Shown here: in pieces, positions 25,526 to 64,000 of the stretch
How positions within the stretch are numbered: the first letter of the stretch is position 1
Layout of the letters: every line of letters starts with the position of its first letter
From: Octopus vulgaris
Taxonomy: Eukaryota
Assembly: GCA_951406725.2 (NCBI GenBank)
Contig: OX597826.1
Location: 23,436,001-23,500,000, forward strand
DNA: 64,000 nt
Direction of reading: 5' to 3'
The notes under the pieces: model-generated
Told to the model about the DNA's origin: nothing
The model's database searches: none
Seen by the model: only the letters and a program-made list of their open reading frames with translations
Position numbers and translations under genes: made by a program

Positions 25526-28500
25526 CTGTTTAAATACTCAACAAATGCAGCAGTTATTCTATGCAGGAGTCCCTAATTTGCACACCATAAAATGTTTAAT
25601 ACTTTATAAACTGTTTAAATACTCAACAAATACAGCAGTATTTCTATGAAGGAGTCCCTAATTTGCATACCGAAAGTGTTTAGCACTATAAACTGTTTAA
25701 ATACTCAACAAAAATGCAGAAGTTATTCTATGAAGGAGTCTCTAATTTGCATACCGAAAATGTTTAACACTTTATAAACTCTTTAAATACTCAACAAATG
25801 GGGCAGTAATTCGATGAAGGAGTCCCTAATTTGCATAACAAAAACGTTTAGCACTCTATAGACAGTTTAAATACTCAACATACGCAGCAGTTATTCTATA
25901 AAGGAGTTCCTAATTTGCATACTGAAAATTCTGAACCCCTCCATAAACTGTGTAAATACTAAACAAATGCAGAATTTATTCCTTAAAGGAGTCCCTAATT
26001 TGCATACCGAAAATTTTTAACCCTCTATAAATTGTTCAAATACTCAACAAATGCAGCAGTTATTCAATTAAGGAGTGCCTAATTTGCATACCAAAAGTTT
26101 TAAACCGCCCTATAAACTCTATATATACTCAACAAAGGCAGCAGTTATTCTATGAAGGAATCCCTAATTTGCATACCGAGAATGTTTAACCCCTCTATAA
26201 ACTGTTTAAATACTCAACAAATGCAGAAGTTATTCCATGAAGGAATCCCTAATTTGCATACCGCATATTTTTAACCCCTCTATAAACTATTTACATACTC
26301 AACAAATGCAGAAGTTATTCTATGCAAGAGACCCTAATTTGCATACCGAAAATTTTTAACCGCTCTTTAAACTGTTTAAAGACTCTACAAATACAGCAGT
26401 TATTCTATGAAGGAGACCCTAAGTTGCATATGGAAAATTTTTAACCCTCTACGTATTGTTTAAATACTCAACAAATGCCTCAATTATTCTATGAAGGAGT
26501 CCCTAATTTGCATTCCGAAAATGTTCAACACTCTATAAACTGTTTAAATACTCAACAAACGTAGCAGTTATTCTATGCAGGGGTCCCTAATTTGCATACC
26601 GAAAATGTTACACACTTTATAAACTGTTTAAATACTCAACAAATGCAGCAGTTATTCTATGCAGGAGTCCCTAATTTGCATGCTGAAAATGTTTAACCGC
26701 TCCATAAACCTTATATACACTAAAAAAATGCAGCAGTTATTCTATGAAGGAGACTCTAATTTGCATACCGAAAATGTTTAACAGCTCAATAAAATCTATA
26801 TATACTCAAGAAAAACAGCAATTATTCTATGAAAGAGACTCTAATTTGCAAACTGAAAATTTTTAACCACTCAACAAATTCTATATATACTTAACAAATG
26901 CAGCAGTTATTCTACGCAGGAGTCGTTAATTTGCATACCAAAAATGTTTAACCACTCTATAAACTCTATATATACTCCACAAGTACAGCAGTTATTCTAT
27001 GAAGGAATACCTAATTTGCATAACAAAAATGTTTAAACGCTCTATAATCTTTATATATACTCAACACATGCAGCAGTTATTCTGTGAAGGGGTCCCTAAT
27101 TTGCATACCGAAAATGTTCAACACTTTATAAACTGTTTAAATGCTTAACAAATGCAGCAGATGATCTATGCAGGAGTACCTAATTTGTATGCTGAGAATG
27201 TTTAACCGCTCCAAAAACCCTATATATAGTCAACTAATGCAGCAGTTATTCTATGAAGGAGACTCTAATTTGCATACCGAAAATGTTTAACAGCTCAATA
27301 AACTCTATATATACTAAACAAATATAGCAGTTATTCTATGAAGGAGACTCTAATTTACATACCGAAAATTTTTAACCGCTTAACAAACTCTATTTATACT
27401 TCACAAATGCAGCATTTATTCTATGCAGGAGTCGCTAATTTGCATACCGAAAATGTTTAACCGCTCTATAAACTCTATATACACTCCACAAATACAGCCG
27501 TTATTCCATGAAGGAGTCCCTAATTTGCATACCGAAAATGTTTAATCGCTCTATAAACTCTATTTATACTCAACAATTGCAGCAGTTCTTCTATGCAGGA
27601 GCCCCTAATTTGCACACCGCAAATGTTTAACCGCTCTATAAACTCTATATATACTCAACAAATGCAGCAGTCATTCTTTGAAGGAGACCGCAATTTGTAT
27701 ACCGAAAATTTCTAACCCTCTATATACTGTTGAAATACTCAACAAATGCAGCAGTTATTCTATGCAAGAGTCCGTAATTTGCATACCGAAAATGTTAAAC
27801 TCTCTATAAACTCTTCAAATACTCAACTAATGCAGCTTTTATTCTATGCAGGAGTCCCTAATTTGCATACTGAAAATGTTTAACCGCTCTATAAACGCTA
27901 CATATACTCAACAAATACAGCAGTTATTATATGAAGGAGACTCTAATTTGAATACAGAAAATTTTTAACCCTATATAAACTGTTTAAGTACTCAACAAAT
28001 GCAGCAGTTATTCTTTGCAAGAGACTGTAATTTACATACCGTAAATGTTAAACACACTATAAGCTGTTTAAATGCTCAACAAATGCAGCAGGTATTCTAT
28101 GCACGAGTCTCTAATTTGCATACCAAAAATGTTTAACCTCTCTATACACTCTATATATACTAAACAAATACAGTAGTTTTTCCATGAAGGAGACTCTAAT
28201 TTGCATACTGAAAATTTTTAACTGCTCTATAAATTCTATATATACTGAAGAAATGCAGCAGTTATTCTATGCAGGTGTCCCTAATTTGCATACCGAAAAT
28301 TTTTAACCGCTCTATAAACTCTATATATACTCCACAAATACATCAGTTATTCTATGCAGGAGTCCCTAATTTGCATACTGAAAATGTTTAACCGCTCTAT
28401 AAACACTATATATACTCAACAAATGCAGCAGTTATTCTATGAAGGAGTCCCTCATCTGCATACCGAAAATACTCAACCTCTCTATAAACTCTATATGTAC

Positions 28501-29608
28501 TCAACAAATGCAGCAGTTATTCTATGCAGGAGTCCCTAATTTGCATACCAAAAATTTTAAACACTCTATAAACTGTATATATATTCAACAAATAAAGCAG
28601 TTATTCTATGTAGGAGACTATAATTTGCATACCGAAAATTTTTAACCGCTCTATAAACTCTATATATACTCAACAAATGCAGCAGTTATTCTATGCAGGA
28701 ATCCCTAATTTGCATACCGAAAAGTTTTAACACTCTATAAACTGTTTAAATACTCAACAAATGCAGCAGTATTTCTATGAAGGAGTCCCTAATTTGCATA
28801 CCGAAAGTGTTTAGCACTATAAACTGTTTAAATACTCAACAAAAATGCAGAAGTTATTCTATGAAGGAGTCCCTAATTTGCATACCGAAAATGTTTAACA
28901 CTTTATAAACTCTTTAAATACTCAACAAATGGGGCAGTAATTCGATGAAGGAGTCCCTAATTTGCATACTGAAAATGTTTAACCGCTCCATAAACTCTAT
29001 ACATACTCAACAAATACAGCAGTTATTCTATGCAGGAGTCCCTAATTTGCAAACCGAAAAGTTTTAACACTCTATAAACTGTTTAAATACTAAACAAATG
29101 CAGTAGTTATTCTATGAAAGAGTCCCTCATTTGCAAACCGAAAATGTTTAACCGCTCTATAAACTCTATATATACTCAACAAATGTAGCATTTATTCTAT
29201 GCAGGAGTCCCAAACTTGCATACTGAAAATGTTTAACCACTCTATAAACTCTATATATACTCAACAAATGTAGCATTTATACTATGAAGATTCCCTAATT
29301 TGCATACTGAAAATGTTCAATCACTCTATAAATTCTATATATACTCAACAAATGCAGCAGTTATTCTGTGCAGGAGTCCCTAATTTGCATACTGAATATG
29401 TTTAACCGCTCTATAATCTCTATATATACTGAACAAATACAACAGTTATTCTATAAAGGAGTCCCTAATTTGCATACTGAAAATGTTTAACCGCTCTATA
29501 AACTCTGTATATACTCAACAAATGCAGCAGGTATTCTATGCAGGAGTCGCTAATTTGCATACTGAAAGTGTTTAACCACTCTATAAACCGTATATATACT
29601 GAACAAAT
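25526..29608. repeat. ~85-bp tandem satellite, about 48 units, in the last intron
   Basis: Consensus CCCTAATTTGCATACCGAAAATGTTTAACCGCTCTATAAACTCTATATATACTCAACAAATGCAGCAGTTATTCTATGCAGGAGT. Unit spacing 82-86 bp; flanked by (CCAT)/(CCGT/CTGT) microsatellites. Confidence 0.97.
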
Positions 29609-33599: not shown

Positions 33600-35800
<2,201 letters not shown>

Positions 35801-35805
35801 ATATA

Positions 35806-37034
35806 AGTAAAACAATTAAGATTCAAGTGAGTTCCAATGAATTCACATGAATGCGGTACTTAACTTAGATGCACCAGAAATCTTTATGGTATTAACCATA
35901 AAATAATGTGGGGTGATTATAAACAAGAAAAAAGCAACAAGAATGGATTAGTTGTTCAGTACAATTGTTTCATACGAAGAACAGATTTATTAAAAGCTGC
36001 AAATATTGCAGCAAATACAAGTGTCCCGTATTCATCAGCCAAAACACATATGAGTTTTCCAAACATCCTAGGGGGTGAGGCTACACTCATGAAGTATCGA
36101 AGAGAGTTCTATGAAAAGCAAAGTTAGATTGTAAGCAGACTTAAATGTTCTCTAATGATGCACAGTCTTATAAAAGGTTTTTAAAAAAGTTTGTTAGCTT
36201 CACAGAAAAGGTAAATCTGTCTATAATAATGCAGGTGTAATTTCCAGAGATATGAGGAGAGATTTTATTCTCAGAGAAGATGAATGTATCCATAATAATG
36301 TAGATGTAATTTCCTGATATATGAGGAGAAGATGTTGATCACACTTCTATTCATTTCACAAAACTACTATGTTGGAAGAAGAGATTGGCTATATTGGCTA
36401 AAAGAAGTCGCAAAAGAAGTCAGTGAAGCAGAAACGGCCCAAATAAGGACATTATGGGAGGAAGGGGGTGTAAGTACACAACCTACAAAGTTTAGTTTAT
36501 TTCTGTGGTGACAGAAAATCTAGGTCAGTGTTGCAGGAATCTAAGATTTATAATTTATAAGAGAAAATTATTTTTGACCATCATACAGCTATTAACTGCC
36601 ACTCCTACAGAGTTAATGGCGGGTTAAAGAATATAAAGAGAACAAAAGAAAGTATCAAAGCAAGCACTAAATCCCGAGAGGTCTGCTCGGGACTTAGTGC
36701 TTGCTTTTTCCATGGGTATGAGTAAGTATTTCATATATATCTCACATATTTATCGCTGAAGAAGGGAAAATTCTTATGAATTAACCCCGAAATTGGGACC
36801 AATACGGTAATAACAGATTTTTTAGAAATTTCTATTGGCTTATTTCAAGACGCATAAATTATAATGGTGATTGACAATTTTGTCTTTTTTTCGGCATATT
36901 TGGCATTAGAATTTTTCTTTTGCCCTAATTTTTTAAATTATTTATAAATTTAACTTTTAAAGGTATTTTTTGATATGCTGGCCATTGATAACATTTTTTT
37001 CTCTGAAAAATAAAAAAATTTTATCCTACATTAG

Positions 37035-37035
<1 letters not shown>
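35806..37035 (+). mobile_element. ~1.2-kb non-coding, structured, hammerhead-bearing element inserted in (TA)n (Penelope-derived/retrozyme-like)
   Basis: Bounded by (TA)n on both sides; no recognisable ORF. Contains a 22-bp hairpin (36657-36707) and a hammerhead fold (36750-36810). Confidence 0.5.
36750..36810 (+). ncRNA. Type I hammerhead ribozyme-like fold
   Basis: TTATCG-CTGAAGA-aGGG aa AATTC ttat GAATT aa CCCc-GAAA-TTGG ga CCAA-TA-CGGTAA. All three stems can be drawn; A.C mismatch at the base of stem II. Confidence 0.7.
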
Positions 37036-37082
<47 letters not shown>

Positions 37083-37261
37083 ATATATGTATATATATAT
37101 ATACGACAGGCTTCTTTCAGTTTCCATCTACGAAATCCGCTCACAAGGCTTTGGTCAGCCCGAGTGGGACTGAACCCAGAACAATGTGGTTTGTAAGCAA
37201 GCTACTTACCACACAGCTACTCCTGTACCTATGTATATATACATACACACACACACATGTA

Positions 37262-60072: not shown

Positions 60073-60249
60073 AATACACACACACATACATGCCAACATG
60101 CAAGCACACGCACACATATATCTACACATTAAATTAGAGACAAAACCACTATTAGGCAAATCAAACAATGAAAGACTTAAGCCAATACATATGATTAATT
60201 TATATTATTTAAATATGTAACAAAATTATTAAAAAATATAATTAATATC

Positions 60250-60312
60250 CCACTACGATCGTTTCCTGCCTGCTGTCTTCAAATTTTTGAGTCGCAGTCA
60301 TTCATCAGGTGG
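60250..60312 (-). ncRNA. Type I hammerhead ribozyme-like fold with palindromic stem III
   Basis: Reverse complement: CCAC-CTGATGA-aTGaCTGC...GCAGgCAg-GAAA-CGATCG-TA-GTGG, inside an ~770-bp AT-rich insert (60130-60900) between (TA)n/(CA)n tracts. Confidence 0.72.
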
Positions 60313-60923
60313 TTTAAATATCTAAAATATAATCAATATTTTTAAGATATAAATAATATATATAATCTAAAATAATAATTTACTTATAATAAACTCTATT
60401 ATTAAATATGATTATATCGAAATCGACTATAATGTTAAATATTAACTTTAATTTATAAGGTAGAAAACCCATATTCTAATATCAATATTAGTCTATATCT
60501 AATTACATAAATATTTAAAATGACTAATATATATAAATTATCAACGAAAATATATATAAATATTATAATCAAGATCTAAAATAATCTCTATAAATAATTG
60601 TATATAATGAGAACCTAATAAATTTAATTTTTCATATTTAAAGATGAAATAGCTAATTTCAAAGTACAAATAAACTAACTTAAACTGACTTTCAAAATCT
60701 TATGTAAAATACTTATAGAAATATTCAATTCTTAGTAATATAGTATTAAATAAATACTATAAGTACTATAAACATAATTATGAATGGGAATAATTATCTA
60801 ATATAAATTATGCTATTAAATTAGACATGGCCTAGACCATCTTTAGTCGAAACATATCTAATTTTATCAAAGTTTATCTAATTTATTTAATATCTAATAA
60901 CATAGATATATATATATATAACG

Positions 60924-62198: not shown

Positions 62199-64000
62199 GC
62201 GTGCGTGTCGTATGTGCGTGTAGTTGTGTGTGCGTGTACGTGTGCGTTTGTATGTGTGTGTGTAAGCGTATATGGGTGTATATCTGTGCATTCTTGTGCG
62301 TGTGTGTACGTTTGTGTACGTGTGTGTGTGCACGGGCATATGTGTGTGTGTGCGAGGGTGTGTGTGGGTATGTGTATTTGTGTATGTGTGCGTGTGTGTA
62401 TGTGTGTGGAAGTATGTGTGCGTATATGTGCATGTATGTTGTATGTGTGTGTGGTGTGTTGGACGTATGTGTGTGTTCGTGGATACGTGAGTATGTGTGT
62501 GTATGTGTTTCTGTATAAGGACAATAATTTATAAAAACAATAAAATAATAAAAAATCAAAAAACAAAAAATTATTAAAATAATAGAAAAGACGTAATAGC
62601 ACGTAAGGAAAGAAATGAAAAAAAGACAAAGAAAAAAAGAAAATGAGGAAGAAATAAGAAATAAAGTTGCTTCTTGCGGAAGGTGGAGACGTAGTCACTA
62701 AGAGGAGGGGGCTGTGTTGAGTCTGTGCGGGGTAATAGTCTGTAAAGTGATAATAAACCGTTGCTCCAAGTGAAGCCTGGATTGTGGAGGTCCGTTGTGT
62801 GGGGCGAGACCAAACACCGACATGTCACCGGGGGAATGGCTGGCCGAGCAGAAGTGACGTGCGACGGGAGAATTGGAAGGCAGCCGAGATGTTCGGCAAA
62901 CCGGTCGGCCAACCGGCGTCCCGTCTGTCCTACATAAAGTATCCCGCAGAAGTTGCATTTTATGCAATATATGAGACCAGACGAAGTGCACGTAAAAGAA
63001 TGTCTAATACGTACAGTTCGCTGGTTGGAGCCGGTGACAGCAGTGGTGTTGGTGATGAAGGGGCAGGTGTTGCAGCGGGATCTGGAGCACGAGAAGGATC
63101 CATGTGGGGCTGAGGGGGAAGAGGAGAGGGTGCTACGTACCAGGAGATCGCGTAGATTCCGCGCTCGTTTAAAGGAGGACAGGGGTGGTTTGGGGAAATG
63201 GGGCGGGTCGTGGGATTGAGCTGGAGACGACGGAAGGCACGTAGTATGCTCCGACGAAGGGGTAGAGTGGAGGGGTGGAAAAGGAGGGGAAAGGGGGTGC
63301 GGTTGGGGGTTGGTGAGAGGAAGGAGAAAGGGCGGTAGTGCGATCGATGCGACGAGCGCGGGCAAGGGCGTTCAAGACCAGGGTTGGGGGGTATCCTCGA
63401 TGCCTGAACAGGCGGGCCAGGTACTGAGACTGGGTCTCGAAATCCTGGTCGCGGCTGCACAAGCGTCGGAGGCAGAGGAACTGGGAGTAGGGGATGGCCC
63501 GTTTGGTGTGGAAGGGATGGGAGGAGAAGTTGAGATAGAGGTGGGAATCTGTGGGTTTGAAGAAGGCGGAAGTGGTGAGAGAGTGGGAGGGGTGGTCGAT
63601 GCTAAGAGAGATGTCAAGGAAGTTAGCAGAGGTATTTGAGATGGTGGAAGTGAATTGGAGAGAGGGGTGGAAGTTAGAGAGGAAAGAGATGAAATGGCAG
63701 AGTTGTTTGCGGGAGAGGGAGGTGGCGCCTATGCAGTCGTCTATGTAGCGACCGTATAGCTCTGGGGTCGGCCCGGAGAATTGGGAGAATACTTGGGCCT
63801 CAATGTAGCCAACAAAGAGATTGGCGAAATTGGGGCCCATTCTCGTTCCTATCGCGACCCAAGACAGCTGTTGGTACGTTTCCCCGGCGAACGTGAAGCA
63901 GTTGAGGGTGAGGACGAGCTCTGCCAGGCGGAGAAGGGTGGGAGTGCTGGGGGTGGGGTCGGGGCGACGGTCGGGGAAGTATGGGAGGGCTAAGAGACCG
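61412..64000 (-). mobile_element. Penelope-like element (RT + GIY-YIG), frameshifted, runs off the window end
   Basis: GTRMGPNFANLFVG, RYIDD, FLDI, then CNTC and LIYCIKC..LYVGQTGRRLADRFAEH (62696-64000). Putative long (CA)n-rich 3' region ending in a pLTR-like segment at 61412-61626; linkage of that segment to the ORF is inferred. Confidence 0.85.

What the first reader, a model, noticed from the sequence alone, without database searches (positions are those of the whole stretch)
35806..37035. 1.2-kb ORF-less structured element with a hammerhead: candidate non-autonomous ribozyme retroelement
Seen: inserted in (TA)n with no coding homology that I recognise. It has an internal ~70-bp duplication (36222-36265 vs 36292-36330), hairpins at ~36591-36626 and 36657-36707, and a full hammerhead fold at 36750-36810. 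Together with the unrelated hammerheads at 35507 and 60250 and the Penelope ORF at the window end, this suggests (inference) several distinct ribozyme-bearing families that target TA microsatellites and borrow Penelope RT/GIY-YIG. This is my best candidate for an undescribed system here.
Basis: partly seen in the sequence, partly recalled or inferred. Interest (0 to 1): 0.72.

Follow-up and report, generated by a model that had tools for sequence, protein, structure and literature searches.

The report
Retrozyme fused to Penelope retroelement end
The 1.2-kb "element" is a one-off join of two different jumping repeats, the tail end of a protein-coding Penelope-like retrotransposon and a small protein-free repeat with a predicted self-cutting RNA motif, likely fused when the first landed on an older copy of the second; both belong to known kinds.

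Summary
The span is not one element. Only the window's own copy covers all 1,230 bp among 40 scored matches. Part A (35806-36660, minus strand) is the 3' UTR and terminal repeat of a ~4.3-kb Hydra-clade Penelope-like element with RT and GIY-YIG. Part B (36679-37035, plus strand) is a 5'-truncated copy of a ~469-nt non-coding retrozyme: 980 motif matches, partial tandems, no coding parent found. Its hammerhead is supported by four compensatory pairs against a sister family, but this copy has a near-private stem-II mismatch. The strong hairpin is a 22-nt remnant of B's usual inverted arm, joined to A through a 4-nt microhomology. Both families insert in (TA)n with the Penelope two-start-site "tail" signature, so B likely rides on Penelope RT. 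B looks older than A here (13/357 vs 7/855 private changes; p 0.001 to 0.075), favouring two successive insertions. The scan has noted the same retrozyme/Hydra pattern on other DNA of this genome. New families of known kinds; modest interest.

The parts
35661..35805 (.). (TA)n tract, target of the A arm
   Evidence: 71 of 78 A-family 3' ends have a TA-like flank
35806..36660 (-). Part A: 3' UTR / pseudo-LTR end of a ~4.3-kb Hydra-clade Penelope-like element, 5'-truncated after 855 nt, starting at the family's distal end site
   Evidence: other copies continue past 36660 into a GIY-YIG and RT ORF
35955..36043 (-). Type I hammerhead motif of family A (core CUGAUGA 36038-36032, palindromic stem III ACAAUUGU, predicted cut 35960/35959)
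   Evidence: 125 exact 35-nt matches genome-wide; 377 matches of a 22-mer at <=1 mismatch
36199..36329 (.). 62-nt internal duplication, period 69; a fixed feature of the A-family UTR
36657..36660 (.). 4-nt microhomology (AAAG) shared by A and the inverted B arm at the join
   Evidence: A copy L003 and B copy L033 beside the window junction
36657..36678 (-). 22-nt remnant of an inverted B arm; forms the 36657-36707 hairpin with the start of the B arm
   Evidence: both arms carry the minority G allele of 36689 (7% of copies)
36679..37035 (+). Part B: 5'-truncated copy (monomer nt 118-465) of a ~469-nt non-coding retrozyme, ending at the family's distal end site
36750..36810 (+). Type I hammerhead motif of family B (core CUGAAGA 36756-36762, GAAA 36789-36792, predicted cut after 36804); this copy has an A10.1-C11.1 mismatch at 36763
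37036..37103 (.). (TA)n tract, target of the B arm
   Evidence: 69 of 79 B-family 3' ends have a TA-like flank

Best explanation
The span is a head-to-head join of the 3' end of a coding Hydra-clade Penelope-like element (A) and a copy of a non-coding ~469-nt hammerhead retrozyme (B), likely made in two steps: B was likely pasted first into a TA repeat as the usual two-armed insertion, and a younger A copy likely then replaced most of B's left arm. Shown: two separate families, each with hundreds of copies, each with two fixed 3' end sites in (TA)n; A continues into RT + GIY-YIG in longer copies; B never leaves its monomer; a 4-nt microhomology and a 22-nt inverted B remnant at the join. Inferred: B RNA is cut to monomers by its hammerhead, probably circularised, and reverse-transcribed by a Penelope (most likely Hydra-type) protein from both cut DNA strands; A was primed in the left TA tract and its cDNA end annealed at AAAG inside B's left arm (or a later microhomology deletion removed what lay between).
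For: Only 1 of 40 scored matches covers the whole span; the other 39 stop at or before nt 855. B matches start at query nt 19-33 in 39 of 39 other scored copies. 0 of 53 listed A matches on C1-C3 lie within 5 kb of 99 listed B matches. A continues into an ORF with RIRWK, DKT, CxCx5C, CxxC and CxH, and L062 has a direct upstream repeat before the ORF start, matching the Hydra definition (PMC8557442 section 11). 53 unique B insertions consist of monomer pieces in partial tandem and inversion; 4 arms cross the predicted cut site twice. Two-armed insertions pair a distal with a proximal end in 24 of 24 A and 14 of 26 B cases (distal+distal 1 of 26), the Penelope 'tail' signature (PMC11167929); the window pairs two distal ends. 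Private substitutions: A 7/855, B 13/357, p=0.001 at equal rates, 0.014 without CpG. The best genomic match to this B copy is only 93%, so no source copy carrying its changes was found. Single A and B arms often join non-TA DNA at their inner end. The join is not at either predicted ribozyme cut site.
Against: The age gap shrinks to p=0.075 if B sites change 2.1 times faster than A sites, the ratio seen between arms of two-armed copies (5.6% vs 2.7%). Insertion-linked and later deletion cannot be told apart. No cleavage, circle or expression was shown. No coding element with a B-like terminal repeat was found (0 of 50 Hydra-endonuclease loci), so the helper family is unnamed; other TA-targeting Penelope clades (Naiad) exist in cephalopods. 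The join was not confirmed in independent reads.
Confidence: 0.72

Rival explanations
1. One insertion event with two RNAs: a Hydra RT dimer primed the A mRNA on one cut strand and a B retrozyme RNA on the other, the A cDNA switching briefly to the B RNA at AAAG. The join would then record family A as B's helper.
For: Both 3' ends face outward into TA like ordinary two-armed insertions; a Penelope protein cleaves and extends both strands in vitro (PMC11167929); family age ranges overlap (median private changes 1.7% A, 2.0% B); a second two-family head-to-head join exists in L216; the age gap is not significant under a 2.1-fold rate difference.
Against: B arm carries 4.4 times more private changes per base than A; no near-identical B source copy; distal+distal pairing breaks the distal+proximal rule; 0 of 53 other A matches have B nearby; the inverted B remnant is what a truncated ordinary B insertion leaves.
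Confidence: 0.18
2. B is not an independent retrozyme but the orphan terminal repeat (pLTR) of a coding Penelope family whose long copies were not sampled.
For: Short A-family and 35507-family insertions look just like B until long copies are found; retrozymes and pLTRs are related (10.64898/2026.07.22.740005); only 53 insertions of a family with 980 motif matches were read.
Against: The distal end runs head-to-tail into monomer nt 1, not into an ORF; none of 53 B insertions or 25 sister-family loci shares unique upstream sequence beyond the monomer; 0 of 50 Hydra loci carry a B-like end; the circular monomer folds far better than shuffles (z -5.8).
Confidence: 0.07
3. The 1.2-kb span is itself a transposing non-autonomous element, or an assembly chimera.
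For: It is bounded by TA on both sides and holds two outward-facing hammerheads; no contig in four public runs bridged the join.
Against: Single copy among scored matches; a structured join with microhomology and an inverted remnant carrying the same minority allele as the adjacent arm is the footprint of these families, not of a mis-join; collapsed repeat contigs cannot show absence.
Confidence: 0.03

Closest known systems
Hydra clade of Penelope-like elements (Craig et al. 2021, PMC8557442; nearest catalogued: Hydra-1_Obim, 2,507 bp)
   Same: Part A's parent: RT followed by C-terminal GIY-YIG, RWK and DKT motifs, CxCx5C linker, CxxC and CxH in the endonuclease, canonical hammerhead in the terminal repeat, (TA)n targets, inverted 5'-truncated arm with a tail at one end.
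   Different: A different family from Hydra-1_Obim (protein start and hammerhead row compared by eye): ~4.3 kb, ~1.5-kb 3' UTR, asparagine-rich inserts, tail ~115-125 nt rather than the 30-40 bp quoted for Penelope; all 8 extended copies read are broken or truncated.
Metazoan non-LTR retrozymes (Cervera and de la Pena 2020, PMC7229834; Li, Clavereau and Pollet 2026, 10.64898/2026.07.22.740005)
   Same: Part B: non-coding monomer, one type I hammerhead per unit, tandem copies, low GC (32%), strongly self-paired as a circle, co-occurs with Penelope-like elements.
   Different: 469 nt is above the 170-400 nt of PMC7229834 but within the 51-972 bp of the preprint; dispersed 1-2-unit two-armed insertions rather than long arrays; no parent pLTR found; RNA not tested.
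Penelope 'tail' / two RT start sites (Frangieh et al. 2024, PMC11167929) and inverted pLTR junction palindromes (PMC3846280)
   Same: Two fixed 3' end sites per family, one per arm; palindromes at inverted junctions; 5' joins by microhomology.
   Different: Here the signature is seen in a non-coding retrozyme as well, and the two arms of this locus come from two unrelated families.

Membership tests
Hydra-clade PLE (part A parent) | Single ORF, RT with C-terminal GIY-YIG endonuclease | tested here: met
   (L064, L065, L062, ORF in pieces); ESM Atlas top score 0.98, RVT_1 among neighbours; Pfam and PDB sequence searches gave nothing useful
Hydra-clade PLE (part A parent) | RWK motif and DKG changed to DKT | tested here: met
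   RIRWK and PADKTG in L062, L064; definition
Hydra-clade PLE (part A parent) | CxCx5C linker; CxxC and CxH; no CCHH in the endonuclease | tested here: met
   CNCRIKSKC, CQLC, CIH in L062, L065; no CCHH seen by eye
Hydra-clade PLE (part A parent) | Hammerhead in a pseudo-LTR; (TA)n insertion | tested here: met
   (L062 upstream direct repeat); 71 of 78 ends TA-flanked
Hydra-clade PLE (part A parent) | Placement in the clade by RT phylogeny | not tested
   reference proteins were seen in the supplement and compared by eye only
Non-LTR retrozyme (part B) | Non-coding monomer in head-to-tail repeats with a type I hammerhead per unit | tested here: met
   two complete hammerheads on one arm in 4 of 53 insertions
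Non-LTR retrozyme (part B) | Hammerhead fold conserved by selection | tested here: met
   95.8% of 795 cells paired, slid controls 30-48%; four pairs changed on both sides between B and its sister family, about one event each; rows were pre-selected by a motif search
Non-LTR retrozyme (part B) | Low GC, highly self-paired monomer | tested here: met
   GC 32%, circular fold z -5.8 against 60 shuffles
Non-LTR retrozyme (part B) | Self-cleavage and accumulation as circular RNA | not testable with these tools
   no run on record as RNA was listed
Non-LTR retrozyme (part B) | Homology to the pLTR of a coding PLE | tested here: inconclusive
   none in 50 Hydra-endonuclease loci out of 150 scored of 18,392 candidates; other clades not searched

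The most novel reading that the evidence does not exclude
The join is a single insertion in which one Hydra RT complex copied its own mRNA from one cut strand and a retrozyme RNA from the other. Such two-family insertions (this one and L216) would be direct genomic records of which Penelope clade mobilises animal retrozymes, and would show that the two arms can use two different RNAs.
Probability: 0.18. Interest if true: 0.6.

Novelty: new member of a known kind. Interest (0 to 1): 0.3.

Why it matters
As a locus it is a dead, one-off fusion. The families behind it add a new Hydra-clade element and a new retrozyme pair (B and its sister) whose insertions carry the Penelope-specific two-start-site signature. 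That supports the published but largely untested proposal that Penelope proteins mobilise animal retrozymes. Two-family joins would matter more if they proved to be single events, since they would name the helper.

Tried and rejected
Rfam: 0 matches at gathering score in the window; no hammerhead model among 28 matches at E<=5. Pfam gave no RT or GIY-YIG hit for the A-family ORF pieces or the window-end ORF; PDB sequence search 0. Unconstrained folding of the three hammerhead motifs did not return the hammerhead shape. Search for a coding parent of B: the B pair 3 kb apart on C17 (L129) holds unrelated repeats and no ORF; the endonuclease near L054 is a separate neighbour; the RT beside sister-family locus L150 is separated by a TA tract; 0 of 50 Hydra loci have a B-like end. 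A faint likeness of B's last 50 nt to Hydra ORF starts was seen by eye and not tested. Expression: no RNA holder listed. Four contig sets laid on the span gave no piece bridging the join; contigs cannot show absence. Look-ups of earlier findings by sequence returned nothing for A or B. MITE or Helitron reading of part A rejected: no terminal repeats, variable 5' truncation into an RT ORF. RNA-level ligation of A and B rejected: the parts are in opposite orientation and the join is at neither cut site. The output was cut in the middle; statements from them rest on the parts shown.

Full report
Observation. The flanking (TA)n tracts, the lack of an ORF, the internal duplication (36199-36260 vs 36268-36329), the hairpin 36657-36707 (z -9.35) and a type I hammerhead layout at 36750-36810 are real. 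The hairpin at 36591-36626 is within chance (z -1.5). A second hammerhead lies on the minus strand at 35955-36043. The host is likely an octopus; this is inferred from recalled repeat motifs and the 2.8-Gb size, not from a call.

The span is two things. Searching the genome with all 1,230 bp, 40 of 5,624 candidates were scored; only the window's copy covers the whole, and the other 39 stop at or before nt 855. Most of the fetched ones continue with a different shared sequence. Searching with the right-hand 375 bp, 40 of 2,709 were scored; the other 39 start at nt 19-33. A 22-mer from each part, with up to one mismatch, has 377 (A) and 980 (B) matches, reversed controls 0. Among the listed matches on C1-C3, 0 of 53 A matches lie within 5 kb of any of 99 B matches; the nearest is 77 kb away. 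These lists are only the first 100 rows of each search.

Part A. Eight extended copies show an element of about 4.3 kb whose sense is the window's minus strand. [quoted passage not shown] These are the features given for the Hydra clade (PMC8557442: passages, section 11 and supplement rows seen). An octopus family, Hydra-1_Obim, is catalogued; by eye ours is a homologue but another family. All eight copies are broken or truncated. The genome also holds other Hydra ORFs open for 899 and 908 codons, 44-45% identical to the A RT.

Part B. The monomer is about 469 nt. In 59 loci, 53 unique insertions, every copy is built of monomer pieces in partial tandem and inversion. None runs into sequence shared with another locus, apart from an abundant SINE-like repeat next to the TA tract. 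Four arms cross the predicted cut site twice, which needs a circular or uncut multimeric template (inference). A sister family of about 480-490 nt, 81% alike, changes both sides of four hammerhead pairs. On 53 rows (the window plus 52 of 62 motifs; 10 with indels left out; rows chosen by a motif search) 95.8% of cells pair, against 30-48% for slid controls. The four changes are about one event each. The window copy has A instead of G at 36763, breaking the pair that closes the core (2% of copies), so it is likely a weakened ribozyme. One natural monomer folded as a circle gives z -5.8 (60 shuffles). This fits non-LTR retrozymes (PMC7229834, passages seen; 10.64898/2026.07.22.740005, parts 1-3 of 5 seen; its supplements are closed). 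Two searches for octopus with retrozyme or hammerhead terms listed no paper on such a family (listings only). No coding parent was found in 50 Hydra loci.

Shared insertion footprint. 71 of 78 A ends and 69 of 79 B ends abut TA-like sequence. Each family has two fixed 3' end sites. Two-armed insertions use one of each in 24 of 24 A cases and 14 of 26 B cases; 1 of 26 is distal+distal, and the other 11 have at least one end at neither site. This is the Penelope 'tail', explained in vitro by two internal RT start sites with both strands cut and extended (PMC11167929, passages); junction palindromes and microhomology joins are described in PMC3846280 (passages). B therefore likely uses a Penelope protein; Hydra is the best guess, from the matching footprint and the intact ORFs. 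The ORF at the window end has a CX4CxxC linker, the Neptune/Nematis type, and no match to the A proteins; nothing ties it to B.

The join. A ends at 36660 in AAAG, which is also the start of a 22-nt inverted piece of B; B's main arm begins 7 nt upstream of the point it mirrors. Both B arms carry the same minority allele (7%), as expected for one B insertion. The A arm has 7 private changes in 855 nt and the B arm 13 in 357: p=0.001 at equal rates, 0.014 without CpG, 0.075 if B changes 2.1 times faster, as the arm-to-arm figures could mean. The locus pairs two distal ends, and no close source copy of this B arm was found (best 93%). I therefore favour an older two-armed B insertion whose left arm was largely replaced by a younger A insertion or lost in a later deletion (0.72). 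A single event with two RNAs remains possible (0.18); a second two-family join in L216 (1 of 19 loci of the 35507 family) shows such joins recur. Public contigs did not bridge the join and cannot test it.

Neighbouring hammerheads. The one at 35507 belongs to a multicopy family whose longer copies run without a TA break into a Hydra endonuclease or RT (L225, L209). The one at 60250 has a core and palindromic stem III but a poor stem II, and relatives elsewhere; its parent was not found.

Verdict. The named 1.2-kb element does not exist as a unit. It is a Hydra-clade end plus a retrozyme, new families of known kinds, and earlier notes of this scan describe the same pattern in this genome. Interest 0.3.

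Noticed in passing
L216:1419-2060 (G000 C8): A second head-to-head join of two different hammerhead families: an arm of the 35507 family joined at 1780/1781 to an arm related to window 60131-60302, TA on both outer sides.
   Followed up: partly
window 35486-35660: 3' end of another coding Hydra family (minus strand); most copies have the variant core CCGAAGA, this copy CUGAAGA.
   Followed up: yes
window 60131-60902: Very AT-rich, TA-flanked repeat with a hammerhead-like motif at about 60245-60315 (minus strand, weak stem II); relatives in L045, L053, L186, L216; parent not found.
   Followed up: partly
window 62574-64000: Frameshifted GC-rich Penelope-like ORF with CX4CxxC linker and GIY-YIG-like YVG motif, a clade other than Hydra; 66% alike to a copy in L042.
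   Followed up: partly
L132-L156: Sister retrozyme family of about 480-490 nt (core CUGACGA), 81% alike to B, same end sites; may be the ~490-nt family of earlier scan notes.
   Followed up: partly
L033 minus strand, monomer nt 15-62: B carries a GTTCGAATC box-B-like motif and a CACTTCCGG ETS-like motif (labels recalled), both kept in the sister family; possible internal promoter, untested and not rare by chance.
   Followed up: no
L187, L188 (G000 C14, C5): Hydra-type ORFs open for 899 and 908 codons, candidates for the active helper.
   Followed up: partly
L061-L065: A-family ORF has long asparagine-rich inserts before and after the RT thumb end, like those described for rotifer Penelope elements in PMC3846280.
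   Followed up: no
window 25534-29608: Tandem array of 48 copies of an 85-bp unit, 83% matches.
   Followed up: no
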